Under the pieces are notes generated by a model. The model did not search any database. It saw only the letters and a program-made list of their open reading frames with translations, and had not been told where the DNA came from. A stretch of 64,000 nt of DNA from Hyphomicrobiaceae bacterium (GTDB taxonomy: Bacteria > Pseudomonadota > Alphaproteobacteria > Rhizobiales > Hyphomicrobiaceae): positions 54,525 through 118,524 of the forward strand of contig JBGANK010000003.1 of the NCBI GenBank assembly GCA_044222395.1, given 5' to 3'. Each line of letters opens with the position of its first letter. The first letter of the stretch is position 1. Made by a program: the position numbers and the translations under genes. Below are positions 40,935 through 59,954 of the stretch, one piece after another.

Positions 40935-42761
<1,827 letters not shown>

Positions 42762-42983
42762 GCCTTCACGCCCTTTGCTTATGCGGGACCGCTTCCGGCC
42801 GACCGCAGCCATCGACAGTTCGTTCAGATTTTTGTGAGCGCTCGGGCCGCGGCGCAAGTGCTATGCACGCGCAGTGGCTTCAAAGTGCCAGGAACCGGTT
42901 GGCGGCTCGTGCGTTCAACTCGTCAACGCCGATGCCAATCATAGCGTCTCGAGTTTCTCTGAAGACAGATGGAGGTGAATGAG

Positions 42984-43259
42984 ATGAAGCGATTTGCAGC
43001 AATTGTGACTGGTTTGTTCCTCGTGTTTCCGTCCACATTCGCATACGCTGAGGATGATGCAAAGCCGAGCGATGCGGAACTGAAATCGATCGGCGCCGCG
43101 GTCGAAGCGATGGGCTGCAAGGATTGGGACGAGATCGACAAGGAAACAAAAAAGGACGGCAGCTACCACTTCGAGGTCGACGACGCCCAATGCGCGGATG
43201 GCCAGTACGACCTCAAATTCGACAAGGATTTCAAGCTGATCAGCAAGTCGAAGGATTGA
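42984..43259 (+). CDS. small secreted PepSY-like protein
   Basis: GGAGG lies 7 nt before ATG 42984. Signal peptide MKRFAAIVTGLFLVFPSTFAYA. ...YHFEVDDAQCADGQYDLKFDKDFKLI resembles a PepSY fold (tentative). Confidence 0.6.
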   Translation: MKRFAAIVTGLFLVFPSTFAYAEDDAKPSDAELKSIGAAVEAMGCKDWDEIDKETKKDGSYHFEVDDAQCADGQYDLKFDKDFKLISKSKD

Positions 43260-43363
43260 GCTGCTCTGCTCCTTACTGACGTGGGCACGGGCGGGCGAGC
43301 ATCACGAATTCCATCTGTGCGAGGGCAGGCCCGAGTTGCGTTCAACCATGCCGGCATGAAAAT

Positions 43364-43393
43364 GGCCCGCCCTGAATAGGATCAGGGCGGGCC
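43364..43393. terminator. bidirectional intrinsic terminator (PepSY gene / Met-rich gene 1)
   Basis: GGCCCGCCCTGA-atagga-TCAGGGCGGGCC 12-bp stem. A-rich 5' flank and T-rich 3' flank. Confidence 0.75.
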
Positions 43394-43439
43394 AACTTCT
43401 TATTGTTTGTCATTCTGCCAAATCGTTGGAGATGAGATG

Positions 43440-43760
43440 TTACTTCTTCTCATCTTTCTTCTTGGCGTCGCCCGACATACCGGACATGCCGCCCATGGCC
43501 TTGAGACGCTGCTCGGCCTCGGCGGGAGAGCGTCCTTCCATGCCGACCATGTTGTCAGGCTGCATTCCCGACATGCCGCTCATGCCCTTCTGACCAGACA
43601 TTCCCGACATGCCACCCATGCCGCTCATGCCCTTCTGGTCGCCCGACATTCCGGACATGCCGCCCATACCGCTCATGCCTTTTTGCTCTTGAGCCGATGC
43701 CGCAGTGGCGATGGCGCAGGAAACAAGTGCAGCACCAGCAAGCTTCAGGATCTTCCACAT
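43440..43760 (-). CDS. secreted Met/Gly/Ser-rich repeat protein, copy 1 (106 aa)
   Basis: Signal peptide MWKILKLAGAALVSCAIATAASA, then GMSGMGGMSGMSG(D)QK repeats and a Lys/Glu tail. GGGAGAA RBS. Confidence 0.75.
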   Translation of the reverse strand: MWKILKLAGAALVSCAIATAASAQEQKGMSGMGGMSGMSGDQKGMSGMGGMSGMSGQKGMSGMSGMQPDNMVGMEGRSPAEAEQRLKAMGGMSGMSGDAKKKDEKK

Positions 43761-43990
43761 AGAATCTATTCTCCCAGTCCTAGTCATGTTGGAACAAACG
43801 GCTCTTAGGCGCCCGCTCGCGAGCACCGGATGGCTGCCGTTCGGAATTCGGGCCCCGACTCACAGCCCTCGCCAGCGGCACTCAGCATTTACTCCATCTG
43901 AGGTCAACTGCCGGGGCGCATTAGAGTTGCACGCCGTGGCAAAAAATTGCGCAATATTTGGACGTTGCAGCATTCTGTTGTGCATTTTTT
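43761..43990 (-). promoter_or_regulatory. conserved structured 5' leader/promoter of Met-rich gene 1
   Basis: Alignable with 44856-45085. Hairpins at 43876-43913, 43832-43867 and 43808-43827 (see findings). Confidence 0.5.
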
Positions 43991-44280
43991 CGGGCAAGTT
44001 CGGGCGGAGACTTATCACGAGCCAAGGTGGCGGGTCGGCTGGGACAGGGTGTGTGATTTCGCCACATCGGAGGTTGCGACGGAGATCAAACCAGGGCGAG
44101 GGCTCAAGCAGGCCCGATCTCAGCAGCACCGCCTCAGCTGCCACGTTCCGCCCATGCCTCCAATTGGTAATCTGATCATGGCCAATACCTGAACCCGAAT
44201 CGGTTCCAACCCTGCGCAATGGGCGAGCGAACAGCGACGGTTCTGAATGCGCTGCCGTGAGCCGCTCAGGCATGAAAAAA

Positions 44281-44308
44281 GCCCGCCCCGATATCGATCG
44301 GGGCGGGC
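44281..44308 (-). terminator. intrinsic terminator of Met-rich gene 2
   Basis: GCCCGCCCCGAT-atcg-ATCGGGGCGGGC, followed on the minus strand by TTTTTTCATG. Confidence 0.75.
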
Positions 44309-44354
44309 CAAGTGTCCAGTATCCGGCATTACGCCGAAATCGTTTGGGGGGAGA

Positions 44355-44855
44355 TTACTTCTTCTCGTCCTTCTTCTCGTCCTTCTTGGCGTCGCCCGAC
44401 ATGCCCGACATGCCACCCATGCCGCTCATGCCCTTCTGGCCGGACATGCCCGACATGCCACCCATGCCACTCATGCCCTTCTGATCGCCAGACATGCCAG
44501 ACATGCCACCCATGCCGCTCATGCCCTTCTGATCGCCGGACATGCCAGACATGCCACCCATGCCGCTCATGCCCTTCTGATCGCCGGACATGCCAGACAT
44601 GCCACCCATGCCGCTCATGCCCTTCTGGCCGGACATGCCAGACATGCCGCCCATTCCACTCATACCCTTCTGATCGCCAGACATACCGCTCATGCCCTTC
44701 TGATCACCGGACATGCCAGACATGCCCTTCTGATCGCCGGACATGCCAGACATGCCGCCCATGCCGCTCATGCCCTTCTGCTCTTCAGCCGTCGCCGCAG
44801 TGGCGAGGGCGCAAGAGATAAGGGCAGCACCAGCAAGCTTGAGGATCTTCGACAT
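44355..44855 (-). CDS. secreted Met/Gly/Ser-rich repeat protein, copy 2 (166 aa)
   Basis: Signal peptide MSKILKLAGAALISCALATAATA. Nine GMSGM(GGMSGM)SG(D)QK units and a KKDEKKDEKK tail. Confidence 0.75.
   Translation of the reverse strand: MSKILKLAGAALISCALATAATAEEQKGMSGMGGMSGMSGDQKGMSGMSGDQKGMSGMSGDQKGMSGMGGMSGMSGQKGMSGMGGMSGMSGDQKGMSGMGGMSGMSGDQKGMSGMGGMSGMSGDQKGMSGMGGMSGMSGQKGMSGMGGMSGMSGDAKKDEKKDEKK
44397..44777 (-). repeat. in-frame tandem repeat (48-nt / 30-nt units) inside Met-rich gene 2
   Basis: Two adjacent 48-nt units, 44511-44558 and 44559-44606, are identical. Neighbouring units differ by a few bases. Confidence 0.85.
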
Positions 44856-45085
44856 GTATCTTTTCTCCCAGTCACAGTCGCGTTGCTACAAACGGCTTGA
44901 AGGCGCTCGTTCGCGAGCGCCGGCTGGTTGCCGTTTCGAAATCAGGCCCCAACCCTCGGCCCCTTTACAGCGGCGCTCAGTATTCACTCCGCCTGAGGAC
45001 CACCGCCGGGCGCGCATTAGAAAGGCAGGTCATGGCGAAAAGTTGCGCAATAGTTGGAAGTCACAGCAATCTCTTATGAAATATT
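44856..45085 (-). promoter_or_regulatory. conserved structured 5' leader/promoter of Met-rich gene 2
   Basis: Alignable with 43761-43990. Hairpins at 44971-45008, 44926-44954 and 44902-44921. Confidence 0.5.
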
Positions 45086-45347
45086 GCGGCCTAGTTCTGA
45101 CCAAGATCAGCACCCAGTCGATGATTCCGCTTTTGGCAGCAAGCCGCCTGATTTGGCCAAGGTAGATATCCCGTGGGCTGCGAATCGATAAAGGGATCTG
45201 GTTAACGGCAGCACTTGTCGGGCCTTTCCAGCATCTGAGAAGCGCCGGAACCCTGCTTGGCAGCAGAGTTAACCAACTTCCTGAAGGGTTTGTTGATCGT
45301 TCAATGTCAAGGTCGTTCAAACCTTATTTTCAAGCAGAGCCAAACCT

Positions 45348-45932
45348 ATGAACCTCATGGCCGACGCGCGACTGTTTCACGTGGTGCAGCACGCGCATGT
45401 CCACAAATTCGTAGAGAAGCCATATGCCGGGGGCCATGCCAGCGCGCCAGTGCTGCTCGTGCTGTCAGGCCTTGCCATCGCCGGACTTGTCGCGGCGTCC
45501 ATCTTCGTCCCCGCTGCCGTAGCTCCCATGATCGTGGCAACCGCTATCCTCATGGTCGGCGCGGTGGGACTAGCCCTGTTCAGCCTCTATGCCACCGGCG
45601 AGATTATCGAAGCGCGCTTCGACAAAGGCCGGAATTGCGCTCAACTGCTTTATCGCGGACCAACCGCTCATACCGTGTGGGATATTCCGCTCAACCGCAT
45701 CTCTGGCGCACGCATGGCCATGCGCTATGATGAAAATGGCGCGAAAGTCGCAACGCCGGAGCTGGAACTGACGAATGGGCGCACGATCGATCTACCGGCC
45801 TCCACCACGTGGCAAGATATCGAGGCCATTCGCGCGCTGATTGCCGAAGATACTTCGAATAGCGATGCCGCCTGGGCGCGCAAGGCGAGCGTCCGCCAGG
45901 GCGCGCGCACGCGAGGCAAGAACACGCGCTGA
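45348..45932 (+). CDS. hypothetical membrane protein
   Basis: 194 aa with two adjacent TM segments followed by a soluble domain. Moderate GC3. Confidence 0.55.
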   Translation: MNLMADARLFHVVQHAHVHKFVEKPYAGGHASAPVLLVLSGLAIAGLVAASIFVPAAVAPMIVATAILMVGAVGLALFSLYATGEIIEARFDKGRNCAQLLYRGPTAHTVWDIPLNRISGARMAMRYDENGAKVATPELELTNGRTIDLPASTTWQDIEAIRALIAEDTSNSDAAWARKASVRQGARTRGKNTR

Positions 45933-53366: not shown

Positions 53367-53825
53367 TCACGGCTTTATGTAGGTGTAGCCCTTGCCTTGC
53401 AGGTACGACAGTTCGGCCACGCCGGAGGGCACGATGTCGTCCTTGAACACCTCGAACAAATCCTTGTCGGGGTCGATCTTGCGGCCCACGAGCGTGTTGT
53501 TGCAGACCACGAATCCGACCTTCTGCGATTTCAGGTTGGAGACTTCTCCTTGCAGCTTCAGGTCTTGAACAGCATTGCGGAGCAAATCGACGCCATCGCC
53601 GTGCAACACGACCTTGACCTCGACGTTGTCCTTGCCGACGGCGCTGATGTGGTTCTGGACGTTCTTGAGCGCCTTCAGGTAGGCCTTGCCGTCCTGTCCG
53701 GCGTCGAAGTTGATGTGGTAGACGACCTTCTGCTTGCCGTAACGATCCTCGGCAGCGGCAGGTGCGATGGCGAGAGTGACGAGTGCGGCAAAGGCTAAGG
53801 CGACGGCAGTGATTGCACGCAGCAT
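53367..53825 (-). CDS. secreted DsrE/DsrF-like family protein
   Basis: Signal peptide. KVVYHIN...VKVVLHGDGVDLL...VVCNNTL pattern of COG1416-type DsrE-like proteins (from memory). Confidence 0.7.
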   Translation of the reverse strand: MLRAITAVALAFAALVTLAIAPAAAEDRYGKQKVVYHINFDAGQDGKAYLKALKNVQNHISAVGKDNVEVKVVLHGDGVDLLRNAVQDLKLQGEVSNLKSQKVGFVVCNNTLVGRKIDPDKDLFEVFKDDIVPSGVAELSYLQGKGYTYIKP

Positions 53826-56680: not shown

Positions 56681-57235
56681 TCATGCATGATTGCGACCGC
56701 CGACCCGCCCGCCTGCCATGCGGGTCAATGTGCCGTCCTTGTCGACGATCTGGCGTTTCAGGGCGGCGATGACGTGGAGGATGATGGCGGCGATCAAGAG
56801 CTTGCTGCCGAGCCCGTGAACGATATGGCCGGCCTTGTCCATCCATTCGATCTTGCCGATTTCGGGGATCAGGAACAGCCCGAGGACATCGATTGAGCGG
56901 CCCGAACCTAGCGACATCATCATGCCGGAGATCGGCATGAACAGCGTGCCCAGCAACAAGAACCAGTGCGTGACGGCCACAACGCGCTCCTGCCAAGCGG
57001 GCACAATCGACAATGCCGCGGGAAAACCCTGTGCGAGACGCCACACCAGACGCCACATCGCGAACACCAGAACGGCGACGCCAAACCCCTTGTGCCACCA
57101 GATCAACGCCGACTTGGGGTCGCCCTTGGGCATGTCCGCGATGATGAGACCGAACACCAGCATGGCGATCATGGCGACGGCCAGAAGCCAGTGCAGTGCG
57201 ACCGATGTCACTGTTAGCTTATCGCTCTGATCCAT
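56681..57235 (-). CDS. cytochrome b561-family protein
   Basis: Four TM segments with conserved His pairs (ALHWLL..., WWHKGFG..., VTHWFLL..., ILHVIAALK). Confidence 0.8.
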   Translation of the reverse strand: MDQSDKLTVTSVALHWLLAVAMIAMLVFGLIIADMPKGDPKSALIWWHKGFGVAVLVFAMWRLVWRLAQGFPAALSIVPAWQERVVAVTHWFLLLGTLFMPISGMMMSLGSGRSIDVLGLFLIPEIGKIEWMDKAGHIVHGLGSKLLIAAIILHVIAALKRQIVDKDGTLTRMAGGRVGGRNHA

Positions 57236-57533
57236 ATGCGTTTTTCCTTGAGAGTTCGGGCTTTGCGAAGCATTTTTGTCTGATAACGGTGTACTTTTTA
57301 GCGTGCAACGCGGCGGAAACAAGGTTTCCGTCGTCGCACTATCGGACGAGGTCAAAACCCCTAATTCCGGTGCGGTGTTTTCCGCGCTGTGACGTGCCGG
57401 CGCGAGGTTGTGCAATCGATCGGCTTGAAACCGTTGCTAACCCCGCGTATGGGATCGCGCTTGCAGGTGATGTGTGCAAAACCAACCGCGCGGGCCAAGG
57501 CTCGCCGGCAATCTCACGCAAGGACCAATAGTG

Positions 57534-58946: not shown

Positions 58947-59954
58947 ATGAATATGATCGAGCGTGAACGTCAAAAGGACGCCGGGCCGTTCGAGAACGTG
59001 CGCAAGGCCGGTGAGGTCCTCGTCGCCGTCATCCTGCCGTGCCTCAACGAAGCGGCGACGATCGGCGCCACGATCGCCGGTTTCCAGGCGGCGCTACCCG
59101 ATGCCGACATCTACGTCATCGACAACGGCTCGACCGATCGAACCGCCGAAACGGCGAAAGCGCACGGCGCCGTCGTCCTCGCGGAGCCGCTCAGAGGCAA
59201 GGGCAACGCGGTGCGCCGCGCCTTCTCATCCATAGATGCCGACATCTACGTGATGGCGGACGGCGACGGCACCTACGATGCGCGCGAGGCACCGCGACTG
59301 GTGGAGATGCTCGACAGCAATCACCTCGACATGGTCGTGGCGGCACGGCGCAAGGCGAGCGATGACGCCTACCGAGCCGGTCACGAGTGGGGCAACTGGC
59401 TCTTCAATCGCCTCCTTCGCACGCTGTTTGGCAGCGGTTACAAGGACTGCTTCTCCGGCTATCGCGTGATGTCAAATCGTTTCGTCAAATCGTTTCCGGC
59501 CCGCTCCAGCGGCTTTGAGATCGAAACGGAAATGACGGTGCATGCTGCTTTGTTGCGCATGCCGATGCAGGAAGTGGAGTGCACGTACCTGGCGCGCGTC
59601 GAGGGCAGCGAGAGCAAGCTCAAAACCTATCGCGACGGCTTCCGCATCCTGATGACGATCGTCAACTTCCTGCGCCTGCACCGGCCGCTGCTGTTCTTCA
59701 GTGTCGCGGCCGGTGTGCTTCTCGTTGCAGGACTGGCTTTGTTCGTGCCGATCCTCACCGAATTCATGCGCACCGGACTGGTGCCGCGCTTCCCGACGCT
59801 GATCGTGGCGATCGGGCTCGGGATCAGCTCGCTGCTGCTGATGACGGCGGGACTGATCCTGGACGCGACCGCGCGCACGCAACTGGAGGTCCGCCGGCTC
59901 ATCTACCTAAATGCCGAGCGGCGCGCGAACGGAAAGCGGACAACGACGTCGTGA
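58947..59954 (+). CDS. family-2 glycosyltransferase with C-terminal TM segments
   Basis: VAVILPCLNEAATI...YVIDNGSTDRT...GKGNA GT-A motifs and a DGD (DxD) motif. Two C-terminal hydrophobic helices. Confidence 0.85.
   Translation: MNMIERERQKDAGPFENVRKAGEVLVAVILPCLNEAATIGATIAGFQAALPDADIYVIDNGSTDRTAETAKAHGAVVLAEPLRGKGNAVRRAFSSIDADIYVMADGDGTYDAREAPRLVEMLDSNHLDMVVAARRKASDDAYRAGHEWGNWLFNRLLRTLFGSGYKDCFSGYRVMSNRFVKSFPARSSGFEIETEMTVHAALLRMPMQEVECTYLARVEGSESKLKTYRDGFRILMTIVNFLRLHRPLLFFSVAAGVLLVAGLALFVPILTEFMRTGLVPRFPTLIVAIGLGISSLLLMTAGLILDATARTQLEVRRLIYLNAERRANGKRTTTS

What the first reader, a model, noticed from the sequence alone, without database searches (positions are those of the whole stretch)
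43440..44855. Duplicated cassette encoding secreted, extremely Met/Gly/Ser-rich repeat proteins
Two minus-strand genes (106 and 166 aa) share a Sec signal peptide (M[WS]KILKLAGAAL[VI]SCA[IL]ATAA[ST]A) and a Lys/Glu tail. Between these they are built almost entirely from GMSGMGGMSGMSG(D)QK units. By my count the mature copy-2 protein contains about 32 Met. Each gene has its own strong terminator and a conserved ~230-nt upstream region, so the whole expression cassette was duplicated. Met-rich periplasmic proteins are established Cu(I)/Ag(I) binders (PcoE/SilE, CopA/CopB Met motifs, CusF), and Met-rich sequences can act as oxidant sinks recycled by MsrPQ. NCBI also recognises MXKDX pentapeptide repeat proteins as a related curiosity. 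Here no cop/cus/cue, msr or regulator gene is adjacent; the neighbours are a PepSY-like gene and an unknown membrane protein. Function and regulation are therefore open.
Basis: partly seen in the sequence, partly recalled or inferred. Interest (0 to 1): 0.72.

Follow-up and report, generated by a model that had tools for sequence, protein, structure and literature searches.

The report
Duplicated secreted methionine-rich repeat protein genes
Two tandem genes encode exported, probably disordered proteins with a methionine at about every third residue. They most likely soak up oxidants outside the cytoplasm, because relatives in other bacteria sit next to a sulfoxide-reductase-type enzyme.

Summary
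Two minus-strand genes (43440-43760, 106 aa; 44355-44855, 166 aa) encode a signal peptide, GMSGM(GGMSGMSG)(D)QK units and a Lys/Glu tail. The mature copy 2 has 32 Met in 143 residues. Each gene has its own Shine-Dalgarno site, about 250 nt of shared upstream DNA and a strong terminator. Synonymous-only variation among the repeat units indicates selection on the protein.

No Pfam, NCBIfam or Rfam family fits, and the motif is absent from the searched literature.

Related Hyphomicrobiaceae carry 0, 1 or 2 copies at this locus. Outside that lineage, 22 beta-proteobacterial and other loci place similar Met-rich secreted proteins next to one conserved Tat-exported DmsA-like S/N-oxide-reductase-type operon. 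That operon comes with a histidine kinase and a sigma-54 regulator. None of 44 loci shows copper-system hallmark motifs.

The best reading is a compositionally new analogue of MrpX/BcrX. These are periplasmic sacrificial methionine sinks that a molybdenum methionine-sulfoxide reductase re-reduces. Copper or silver binding is not excluded but has no support from gene context.

The window itself holds no reductase or regulator, so function here is inferred. I rate it a new variant of a known kind, of moderate to high interest.

The parts
43440..43760 (-). Copy 1 coding sequence, 106 aa. It has a signal peptide, two and a half GMSGM...QK units, a unique segment MQPDNMVGMEGRSPAEAEQRLKAM, a last GGMSGMSGD unit and a KKKDEKK tail.
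   Evidence: The unique segment is shared with the L018 orthologue (MIGMEGRSPADIEKRMQGM). AlphaFold2 gave mean pLDDT 57, with helices only at residues 3-17 (signal peptide) and 79-89.
43363..43394 (-). Intrinsic terminator of copy 1
   Evidence: 13-bp stem with 10 G-C pairs, a 6-nt loop, then TTTTCAT.
43761..44010 (-). Upstream region of copy 1 that is shared with copy 2 (about 250 nt). It contains the Shine-Dalgarno GGGAG at 43771-43775 and the palindrome TATTGCGCAATTTTT at 43942-43956.
   Evidence: about 70-85% identity to 44856-45105. (the palindrome occurs only at the two cassettes; 0.06 matches expected by chance). The promoter was not identified.
44011..44279 (.). Spacer between the cassettes that is not duplicated
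   Evidence: identity to the DNA upstream of copy 2 falls to background.
44355..44855 (-). Copy 2 coding sequence, 166 aa. It has a signal peptide, nine GMSGM(GGMSGMSG)(D)QK-type units of 10, 15 or 16 residues (the last ends in DAK) and a KKDEKKDEKK tail. The mature protein has 32 Met.
44280..44309 (-). Intrinsic terminator of copy 2
   Evidence: 13-bp stem with 10 G-C pairs, a 4-nt loop, then TTTTTCAT.
44856..45105 (-). Upstream region of copy 2 (about 250 nt). It contains the Shine-Dalgarno GGGAG at 44865-44869 and the palindrome TATTGCGCAACTTTT at 45038-45052. It lies in the divergent intergenic region shared with the membrane-protein gene.
45348..45932 (+). Neighbour, not shown to belong: a divergently transcribed 194-aa protein with a hydrophobic, probably membrane-spanning segment. 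It is restricted to this lineage.
   Evidence: It has no family match and only 10 relatives among 5.8 billion proteins. It is syntenic in L018 and L019. It is also present in L051, where no Met-rich gene lies beside it.
42969..43259 (+).
   Evidence: No Pfam hit at E<=1 and no NCBIfam hit at E<=0.001. An orthologue lies elsewhere in L019. It shows no detectable relation to the folded domain fused to Met-rich repeats in P0036 and P0037.

Best explanation
Each cassette is an independent transcription unit. It makes a Sec-exported protein that is probably unstructured, in which Met recurs about every third residue between Gly and Ser. The protein has no His, Cys or aromatic residues and ends in a Lys-rich tail.

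I propose that these proteins are a high-capacity sacrificial methionine buffer in the periplasm.
1. Exposed thioethers are oxidised to methionine sulfoxide by hypochlorite, chloramines, peroxides or similar oxidants.
2. This spares envelope proteins from damage.
3. A periplasmic molybdenum methionine-sulfoxide reductase then re-reduces the protein with quinol-derived electrons. Here that would be MsrPQ or another enzyme encoded outside the window. In beta-proteobacterial relatives it would be the adjacent DmsA-like enzyme.

The tandem duplication and the repeat expansion raise methionine dosage.

What is shown: the gene anatomy, selection on the protein sequence, the variable copy number and the family-wide linkage to the DmsA-like operon. 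What is inferred: export, disorder, oxidation and re-reduction, and the identity of the reductase in this organism.
For: - Real, selected protein: synonymous-only variation among nine identical repeat cores, and 16 synonymous versus 5 non-synonymous differences between the copies. A conserved Shine-Dalgarno site and orthologues in L018 and L019.
- Composition fits a sink: 19-22% Met in the mature proteins, against 20% in MrpX (PMC4436054). AlphaFold2 shows low confidence and no secondary structure across the repeats. MsrP prefers unfolded, Met-clustered substrates (bioRxiv 10.1101/243626).
- Gene context of relatives: QKGMSGM-type proteins lie beside a membrane-anchored pentahaem cytochrome c, a Tat-signal DmsA-like subunit, a DmsB-like subunit and a TorD-like chaperone. 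This holds in all 9 GTDB loci with enough flanking DNA, in L024 and in 10 metagenome contigs. Most of these loci also have a histidine kinase and a sigma-54 regulator alongside.
- The same enzyme (74-75% identical) also sits beside two other Met-rich architectures, P0037 and P0021.
- The enzyme belongs to the S/N-oxide reductase clade: TIGR02166 dmsA_ynfE at E=1e-185 and bisC_fam at about E=1e-123. Its closest solved structures are DorA-type DMSO reductases and a TMAO reductase. DMSO-reductase-family enzymes reduce protein-bound MetO (PMC7402097).
- Precedents for 'Met-rich peptide + periplasmic Mo MetSO reductase + dedicated sensor': MrpX-YedYZ-SigF/NrsF (PMC4436054), BcrXQP-BcrS/AbcS (PMC8315932) and C3568 with a two-component system in uropathogenic E. 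coli (PMC8550376).
Against: - The scanned ORFs of the window include no reductase, sensor or ECF sigma factor.
- No SigF-type GTAAC-N-CGAA promoter lies upstream.
- The proteins do not match the MXKDX family that contains MrpX and BcrX. They are Gly/Ser-rich rather than charge-rich.
- Homology between the Hyphomicrobiaceae proteins and the operon-linked beta-proteobacterial proteins cannot be separated from convergence, because the sequences are low-complexity.
- The substrate of the DmsA-like enzyme is unknown. It scores below the DmsA/YnfE cut-off (615 versus 777.7 bits).
- Several stand-alone relatives also sit in housekeeping contexts.
- There are no expression or biochemical data.
Confidence: 0.5

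Rival explanations
1. The proteins are periplasmic Cu(I)/Ag(I) sponges or chaperones. Consecutive MxxM motifs bind soft metal ions through thioethers, buffering them or handing them to efflux or oxidase systems.
For: Copy 2 has 23 overlapping MxxM motifs. The M-x-G-M spacing resembles the Met-rich repeats of CopA/PcoA-type oxidases (from my own knowledge). Met-rich domains recruit Cu+ in CueO (PMC11494321).
Against: The ORFs scanned in the window include no cop, cus, cue, pco or sil gene. HMA (GMxCxxC), P-type ATPase (DKTGT) and multicopper-oxidase (HCHxxxH) motifs are absent from 512 kb around 44 Met-rich loci, apart from one stray hit 8.5 kb away. That test is crude. No family member examined has any His, unlike PcoE/SilE or the CopA repeats. 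The only recurrent neighbour is an S/N-oxide-type molybdoenzyme.
Confidence: 0.17
2. The protein is a disordered envelope polymer whose role does not depend on methionine redox or metal chemistry. It could be a hydrated spacer, a lubricant, a surface-associated coat or a chaperone-like holdase. The Lys-rich tail would tether it to anionic envelope components.
For: The Gly/Ser-rich low-complexity composition and low AlphaFold2 confidence fit this. Similar Met-rich stretches occur as linkers or tails on cytochromes c, a NapC/NirT-type cytochrome and DsrE-like proteins. The C-terminal KK is conserved across the family. The genes sit in housekeeping contexts in several lineages.
Against: Met is the invariant residue of every unit, while the residues between the Met vary (S, G, A, Q, E, D). 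This points to selection for Met itself. This reading does not explain the tight linkage to the DmsA-like operon in 22 loci.
Confidence: 0.15
3. The protein forms a collagen-like triple helix from Gly-Met-Ser triplets.
For: There are sub-threshold matches to Pfam Collagen (25.6 versus 27.2 bits) and to collagen-like adhesin models. PDB and exhaustive searches return collagens. Some relatives keep an unbroken Gly-X-Y register for 51-53 triplets.
Against: In the window the 16- and 10-residue units break the register, so the longest runs are 10 and 8 triplets. There is no Pro in the repeats, no trimerisation domain and no anchor. The register varies from 6 to 53 triplets across the family, so it follows from unit length and is not a conserved constraint.
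Confidence: 0.03
4. The ORFs are not translated, and the repeat is a DNA or RNA feature.
For: The exact proteins are absent from a collection of 15 billion proteins. Short-read contigs break at the repeat.
Against: Substitutions are strongly biased towards synonymous changes. The start codon, Shine-Dalgarno site, signal peptide and terminator are conserved across orthologues. GC3 values of 0.70-0.79 are typical of the window's genes. Absence from the databases is explained by assembly breaks at the repeat.
Confidence: 0.03

Closest known systems
MrpX (Azospira suillum PS) and BcrX (Brucella melitensis), annotated as methionine-rich MXKDX repeat proteins
   Same: They are small proteins with a signal peptide, about 20% Met and a probably unfolded chain, and they have no enzymatic domain. 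They are proposed or shown to be oxidised by hypochlorite and regenerated by a periplasmic Mo-dependent MetSO reductase (PMC4436054, PMC8315932).
   Different: There is no sequence or family match. The composition here is Gly/Ser-rich (38-51%) with 20-24% charged residues, against 44% charged in MrpX. The window genes are not in an operon with yedYZ/msrPQ, have no ECF sigma/anti-sigma pair and no SigF-type promoter. Here the genes form duplicated monocistronic cassettes.
C3568 Met-rich peptide with MsrPQ-like C3566/C3567 and the two-component system C3564/C3565 in uropathogenic E. coli
   Same: The design is a Met-rich peptide, a periplasmic Mo reductase and a two-component sensor (PMC8550376). 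It parallels the arrangement of histidine kinase, sigma-54 regulator, Met-rich protein and DmsA-like operon in the beta-proteobacterial relatives.
   Different: The reductase family differs (sulfite-oxidase-fold MsrP versus the DMSO-reductase family). The window has neither a reductase nor a two-component system.
Periplasmic DMSO-reductase-family sulfoxide reductases (DorA of Rhodobacter, DmsABC, TorZ/MtsZ-type)
   Same: The enzyme next to the relatives is Tat-exported. It matches dmsA_ynfE and bisC_fam models, and DorA-type and TMAO-reductase structures. This enzyme family can reduce free and protein-bound MetO (PMC7402097, PMC8340005).
   Different: It scores below the DmsA/YnfE cut-off. It uses a membrane-anchored pentahaem cytochrome c instead of DmsC. 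Its substrate is untested, and it is not encoded in this window.
Met-rich copper-binding regions (CueO Met-rich domain; CopA/PcoA repeats; PcoE/SilE)
   Same: They are periplasmic, partly disordered and have clustered MxxM or MxGM motifs (PMC11494321; my own knowledge for CopA/PcoA and PcoE/SilE).
   Different: Here the protein is free-standing, has no His, is not linked to copper genes and has no oxidase domain.

Membership tests
MrpX/BcrX (MXKDX repeat, Met-rich periplasmic peptide) | N-terminal signal peptide on a small exported protein | tested here: met
   By eye the N-terminus reads as n-region MSKILK, a hydrophobic core and a conserved AXA site (ATA|EE, ASA|QE). No signal-peptide predictor was available, so this rests on sequence inspection.
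MrpX/BcrX (MXKDX repeat, Met-rich periplasmic peptide) | About 20% methionine in the mature protein | tested here: met
   22% in copy 2 and 19% in copy 1. MrpX has 20% (PMC4436054).
MrpX/BcrX (MXKDX repeat, Met-rich periplasmic peptide) | MXKDX-type repeats, made almost only of Met plus charged residues | tested here: not met
   No MXKDX model appears among NCBIfam hits even at E<=10. Charged residues are 20-24% and Gly+Ser 38-51%.
MrpX/BcrX (MXKDX repeat, Met-rich periplasmic peptide) | Operon or adjacency with yedYZ/msrPQ | tested here: not met
   No MsrP- or MsrQ-type family appeared among the 40 window ORFs scanned. A cytochrome b561 gene at 56681-57415 is 12 kb away and unrelated to the cassette. 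Not every ORF of the window was scanned.
MrpX/BcrX (MXKDX repeat, Met-rich periplasmic peptide) | Control by an ECF16 SigF/NrsF-type pair through a GTAAC-N(about 16)-CGAA promoter | tested here: not met
   The only match in the window is at 59416-59441, at the level expected by chance. No sigma or anti-sigma pair was found among the ORFs scanned.
MrpX/BcrX (MXKDX repeat, Met-rich periplasmic peptide) | Oxidised by HOCl in vivo and re-reduced by the Mo reductase | not testable with these tools
   This needs a gel-shift or mass-spectrometry assay and purified enzymes.
GMSGM/QK secreted Met-rich repeat proteins (grouping defined here) | The mature N-terminus starts with [AEQ][DEQ]QKGMSGM, the units are GM[SGAQED] triplets punctuated by QK, and the C-terminus is GMSGMSGD..KK or GMEGKK | tested here: met
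   Both window copies and L018, L019, L007-L017 and L025-L041 share these features. Low complexity prevents proof of homology.
GMSGM/QK secreted Met-rich repeat proteins (grouping defined here) | Adjacency to the operon of pentahaem cytochrome c, DmsA-like, DmsB-like and TorD-like genes with a histidine kinase and sigma-54 regulator | tested here: not met
   tblastn with the operon proteins finds nothing in the window, L018 or L019. The feature is met in 20 GMSGM/QK-type loci, and the enzyme also accompanies two other Met-rich architectures.
Periplasmic Cu/Ag-binding Met-rich proteins (PcoE/SilE, CopA/PcoA repeats, CusF) | Clustered MxxM/MxM motifs | tested here: met
   23 MxxM motifs in copy 2 and 11 in copy 1.
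Periplasmic Cu/Ag-binding Met-rich proteins (PcoE/SilE, CopA/PcoA repeats, CusF) | His (or Trp) accompanying Met in the binding motifs | tested here: not met
   No His and no aromatic residues in any of seven family members examined.
Periplasmic Cu/Ag-binding Met-rich proteins (PcoE/SilE, CopA/PcoA repeats, CusF) | Genomic linkage to cop, pco, sil, cus or cue genes | tested here: not met
   for the window. The motif scan of 44 loci (512 kb) gave one stray hit. Precomputed Pfam lists for 10 loci show none.
Periplasmic Cu/Ag-binding Met-rich proteins (PcoE/SilE, CopA/PcoA repeats, CusF) | Measured Cu(I)/Ag(I) affinity | not testable with these tools
   This needs ITC or competition assays.
Bacterial collagen-like proteins (Pfam PF01391; Scl, Lcl) | A long uninterrupted Gly-X-Y register scoring above family thresholds | tested here: not met
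   PF01391 scores 25.6 against a 27.2 cut-off, and Lcl scores 32.7 against 500. The longest runs are 10 and 8 triplets.

The most novel reading that the evidence does not exclude
GMxGM-repeat secreted proteins would be the dedicated macromolecular substrate of a previously unrecognised periplasmic protein-methionine-sulfoxide reductase. This enzyme takes electrons from quinol and consists of a pentahaem cytochrome c, a DmsA-like subunit and a DmsB-like subunit, sensed by its own histidine kinase and sigma-54 regulator. It would be a third, independently evolved 'methionine redox buffer' system alongside MsrPQ-MrpX. The duplicated Hyphomicrobiaceae cassettes would be free-standing modules of that buffer, serviced by reductases encoded elsewhere in the genome.
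Probability: 0.3. Interest if true: 0.75.

Novelty: new variant of a known kind. Interest (0 to 1): 0.6.

Why it matters
Sacrificial methionine buffers are a recently recognised defence of the bacterial envelope against hypochlorite and related oxidants. So far they are known only as MXKDX peptides coupled to MsrPQ.

This locus belongs to an unannotated grouping with a very different composition. Pfam, NCBIfam and the searched literature all miss it. Because it breaks short-read assemblies, it is also under-represented in protein databases.

The linkage of its relatives to one highly conserved DmsA-like operon gives a directly testable hypothesis. It concerns a new periplasmic methionine-sulfoxide reductase system and the physiological substrate of an orphan molybdoenzyme.

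For this organism, the variable copy number (0, 1 or 2) and the repeat expansion suggest that methionine dosage is tuned quickly. One could test whether that tracks oxidant exposure.

Tried and rejected
- Family libraries. Pfam and NCBIfam gave only sub-threshold collagen-type hits caused by Gly at every third residue. Rfam gave nothing credible in 42700-45500.
- Exhaustive phmmer against 1.84 billion representatives. It returned 1597 hits, dominated by long collagen-like proteins. This says nothing useful about family size. The PDB sequence search behaved the same way.
- Structured 5' UTR. RNAalifold on four upstream regions gives a stem (AACGGC/GCCGTT) enclosing a hairpin, with 7 of 21 pairs compensatory. 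Single-sequence folds are no better than shuffles (z from -1.1 to +1.2), and four sequences are too few. I make no claim.
- Promoter and operator. There is no sigma-70 consensus and no SigF-type promoter. By-eye reading of sigma-54-like spacing around the palindrome is off by one base. The palindrome ATTGCGCAAT is specific to the cassettes. By-eye reading of the alignment did not find it in L018 or L019.
- PepSY link. The 96-aa neighbour has no Pfam or NCBIfam hit. It shows no similarity to the folded domain fused to Met-rich repeats in P0036, P0037 and P0014 (BLAST none; hhalign probability 1.2%).
- Membrane-protein partner. It is syntenic in three genomes but also occurs without any Met-rich gene in L051. 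I reject it as an obligate partner.
- Organism identity. Exact look-ups did not recover the source record. I infer Hyphomicrobiaceae from 92% TypA identity and synteny with L019.
- More Hyphomicrobiaceae orthologues. The metagenome scan returned mostly the QK-punctuated GMSGM/GME-type proteins linked to the operon, and no further Hyphomicrobiaceae orthologue.
- AlphaFold2 without an alignment. Confidence was low, which is compatible with disorder but is weak evidence.
Full report
**1. What is in the sequence**

Two ORFs lie on the minus strand, at 43440-43760 and 44355-44855. The ORF lister starts copy 1 at a GTG (43826, 128 aa). The ATG at 43760 aligns with the ATG of copy 2 and is preceded by the same GGGAG, at 43771-43775 and 44865-44869.

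Both proteins begin M[WS]KILKLAGAAL[VI]SCA[IL]ATAA[ST]A. They continue with [EQ]EQK and then units of GMSGMGGMSGMSG(D)QK or GMSGMSGDQK, and they end in DAKK(K)DEKK. With cleavage assumed after residue 23:
- Mature copy 2 has 143 residues, of which 32 are Met (22%), 48 Gly and 25 Ser.
- Mature copy 1 has 83 residues, of which 16 are Met.
- Copy 1 also carries a unique segment, MQPDNMVGMEGRSPAEAEQRLKAM.
- Neither protein has His, Cys (after the signal peptide) or aromatic residues.

Tandem Repeats Finder reports a 48-nt period with 8 copies and score 509, over an underlying 9-nt period. No other Met-rich ORF exists in the 64-kb window.

**2. The duplicated cassette**

Each gene is followed by a 13-bp, 10-G-C hairpin and a T-run, at 43363-43394 and 44280-44309. 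The two units align from about 250 nt upstream of the ATG to the terminator at roughly 70-85% identity. About 260 nt of unrelated DNA separates them.

**3. Evidence that the genes are real and under selection**

Over 61 unambiguously alignable codons the copies differ by 16 synonymous and 5 non-synonymous changes. The nine GMSGMGGMSGMSG cores are identical as protein but differ pairwise by a mean of 3.4 of 39 nt, all synonymous. GC3 values of 0.70-0.79 match the window's genes.

The long plus-strand ORFs over the repeats (43407-43808, 44247-44900) are antisense artefacts of the repeat.

**4. Organism and locus history**

The window is alphaproteobacterial chromosome. Genes include typA at 40935-42761, argG, dapB, asd and a PIF1-type helicase. 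TypA is 92% identical to that of a Hyphomicrobiaceae MAG, L019.

L018 and L019 each carry a single orthologue at the same place, beside the same lineage-specific hypothetical protein with a hydrophobic, probably membrane-spanning segment. In L019 the Met-rich gene lies directly between typA and that gene. In L018 a dihaem cytochrome c/DUF302 gene sits between the Met-rich gene and typA. L018 shares the MIGMEGRSPADIEKRMQGM segment with copy 1.

A further relative, L051, keeps the DnaJ, typA, membrane protein, PIF1 and phasin synteny but has no Met-rich ORF in the 508-nt gap. The cassette is therefore accessory at this locus, with 0, 1 or 2 copies. The membrane protein has only 10 relatives in 5.8 billion proteins and is not an obligate partner.

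The exact Met-rich proteins are missing from a collection of 15 billion proteins. Short-read contigs that hold the neighbouring gene end at or just inside the start of the copy-2 gene.

**5. Database placement**

No Pfam or NCBIfam family fits. The only hits are sub-threshold collagen-type models, caused by Gly at every third residue. No MXKDX model matches. Rfam finds nothing credible. A literature search for the peptide motifs found no paper that describes such proteins.

**6. Relatives elsewhere and their gene context**

This is the key result. A word-indexed protein search found 40 small secreted proteins or fusions with GMxGM repeats. Pattern scans of GTDB genomes and JGI metagenomes then found 13 and 20 loci.

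The free-standing relatives share three features: a mature N-terminus of [AEQ][DEQ]QKGMSGM, GM[SGAQED] triplets punctuated by QK, and a C-terminal GMSGMSGDKK or GMEGKK.

In every locus of this type with enough flanking DNA, the gene lies beside one conserved operon. These loci are:
- L007-L013, L015 and L016, labelled Azonexus, beta-proteobacterial, Burkholderiaceae, Desulfobulbus or unclassified Pseudomonadota MAGs
- L024
- L025-L033 and L035

The operon has these parts:
- a small secreted protein of about 110-125 aa
- a membrane-anchored pentahaem cytochrome c
- a Tat-signal molybdopterin subunit, MSRRHFLK...
- a DmsB-like 4Fe-4S subunit
- a TorD-like chaperone
- usually a histidine kinase and a sigma-54 response regulator

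The molybdoenzyme matches TIGR02166 dmsA_ynfE at E=1e-185, although its 615 bits fall below the 777.7 cut-off. It also matches bisC_fam. Its nearest solved structures are Rhodobacter DMSO reductases and a TMAO reductase.

Two quite different Met-rich proteins also precede orthologues of the same enzyme and regulators. P0037 has a folded N-domain and a GMSGMQGMGG tail. P0021 has MYGMTGMSGM repeats. Their enzymes are 74-75% identical to the L010 enzyme. P0036 sits next to the same kinase and regulator on a short contig.

That makes 22 loci and three Met-rich architectures linked to one S/N-oxide-reductase-type enzyme. In L010 the Met-rich gene also carries its own terminator-like hairpin. This fits a highly expressed small gene with partial read-through.

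**7. Copper**

The ORFs scanned in the window, which cover roughly 15 kb on either side of the cassettes plus selected ORFs elsewhere, include no cop, cus, cue, pco or sil gene. A crude motif scan covered 44 loci and 512 kb. It looked for HMA (GMxCxxC), P-type ATPase (DKTGT) and multicopper-oxidase (HCHxxxH) motifs and found one stray hit 8.5 kb from a Met-rich gene. Precomputed Pfam lists for ten loci show no copper genes.

The proteins have many MxxM motifs but no His. Copper or silver binding is chemically plausible (PMC11494321) but has no support from gene context.

**8. Mechanism proposed**

The closest experimentally studied system is MrpX in Azospira. It is a signal-peptide-bearing, probably unfolded protein with 20% Met. 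It is induced by SigF/NrsF, rapidly oxidised by hypochlorite and proposed to be regenerated by YedY/MsrP (PMC4436054). Brucella BcrX, annotated as an MXKDX repeat protein, and BcrQP behave similarly under BcrS/AbcS (PMC8315932). Uropathogenic E. coli has a Met-rich peptide and an MsrPQ-like pair under a two-component system (PMC8550376). MsrP prefers unfolded substrates with clustered Met (bioRxiv 10.1101/243626). A periplasmic DMSO reductase reduces protein-bound MetO (PMC7402097).

Taken together, the most economical reading is that the window's proteins are periplasmic sacrificial methionine buffers. In beta-proteobacterial relatives the neighbouring DmsA-like enzyme would be the recycling reductase. 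AlphaFold2 without an alignment gives mean pLDDT 57 and no secondary structure over the repeats, which is compatible with disorder.

Two further features would suit a long-lived unfolded periplasmic protein. These are the conserved C-terminal KK and the lack of hydrophobic or aromatic residues. This point is inference from general knowledge of periplasmic proteases.

**9. Limits**

- The scanned ORFs of the window include no reductase, sensor or sigma factor, and no SigF-type promoter is present. The promoter itself was not identified.
- A 10-bp palindrome, ATTGCGCAAT, lies about 185 nt upstream of both ATGs and nowhere else in the window. By-eye reading of the alignment did not find it in L018 or L019, so its role is unknown.
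- A possible stem-loop in the 5' region has too little support.
- Homology between the Hyphomicrobiaceae and beta-proteobacterial proteins cannot be proved for sequences this simple. The functional argument is by analogy plus family-level context.
- Other stand-alone relatives also sit in housekeeping contexts.

**10. Verdict**

The oxidant-sink option is favoured and the metal option is not. The 'PepSY-like' label is unsupported.
- I classify the feature as a new variant of a known kind: a compositionally novel, unannotated grouping of Met-rich periplasmic proteins analogous to MrpX/BcrX but not a member of that family.
- Confidence in the sink mechanism is 0.5.
- The most novel reading still open has probability about 0.3. 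It is that these proteins are the dedicated substrate of a new DmsA-type periplasmic protein-MetSO reductase system.

Noticed in passing
window 53367-53825 (-): A 152-aa DsrE-like protein with an N-terminal hydrophobic signal-like segment (Pfam PF02635). It is 51% identical to the DsrE-like domain that carries an N-terminal GMSGM-type Met-rich region in other bacteria (P0013, P0023, P0032). Here it is unfused and lies 9 kb from the cassettes.
   Followed up: partly
window 43942-43956 and 45038-45052: The palindrome ATTGCGCAAT, within TATTGCGCAAYTTTT, lies about 185 nt upstream of both start codons and nowhere else in the 64 kb (0.06 matches expected by chance). It may be an operator. By-eye reading did not find it in the L018 or L019 orthologous regions.
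   Followed up: partly
window 43790-43850 and 44885-44945 (-): A possible 5'-leader structure: an outer stem AACGGC/GCCGTT enclosing the hairpin GG(C/U)GCUCG-CGA(A/G)-CG(A/G)GCGCC, with wobble-compatible differences between the copies and compensatory changes in L018 and L019. Folding energies are not better than shuffles and only four sequences are available.
   Followed up: partly
L007-L016, L024-L035, L047, L049 (e.g. L010:845-9846): A conserved operon with no match in the papers I searched: a Met-rich secreted protein, a small secreted 110-125-aa protein, a membrane-anchored pentahaem cytochrome c, a Tat-exported DmsA-like molybdoenzyme, a DmsB-like subunit, a TorD-like chaperone, and a histidine kinase with a sigma-54 regulator. 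The enzyme is 74-92% identical across the loci, while the Met-rich partner varies freely.
   Followed up: partly
L051:3493-4000: A related Hyphomicrobiaceae lineage with the same typA, membrane protein and PIF1 synteny has no Met-rich gene in the gap. Copy number at this locus is therefore 0, 1 or 2 between relatives.
   Followed up: yes
L001-L006 (Logan contigs): Four of the six short-read contigs that carry the identical membrane-protein gene end inside the first 35-43 codons of a minus-strand ORF at the position of copy 2. The other two end before any such ORF. The exact Met-rich proteins are absent from the protein collection. Such repeat genes are probably under-counted in databases.
   Followed up: partly
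window 44811-44813 and 43716-43718 (Cys15 codons): Cys15 is invariant within the signal peptides of all four Hyphomicrobiaceae proteins, in an L-[IV]-[SA]-C context that loosely fits a lipobox. Lipoprotein processing is therefore possible instead of cleavage at the conserved AXA site eight residues later.
   Followed up: no
P0008-P0010, P0015, P0019, P0022, P0028; L045: GMxGM-type Met-rich stretches also occur as N-terminal linkers on class I cytochromes c and as a C-terminal tail on a NapC/NirT-type tetrahaem cytochrome. In L045 that cytochrome is encoded near SoxYZ and flavocytochrome c sulfide dehydrogenase genes.
   Followed up: partly
window 43407-43808 (+), 44247-44900 (+), 44312-44821 (+): Long antisense ORFs over the repeats (HARHATHAAHALL... 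and CPTCHPCRSCPS... repeats) are artefacts of the repeat and of high GC content. They could be mis-called as genes.
   Followed up: yes
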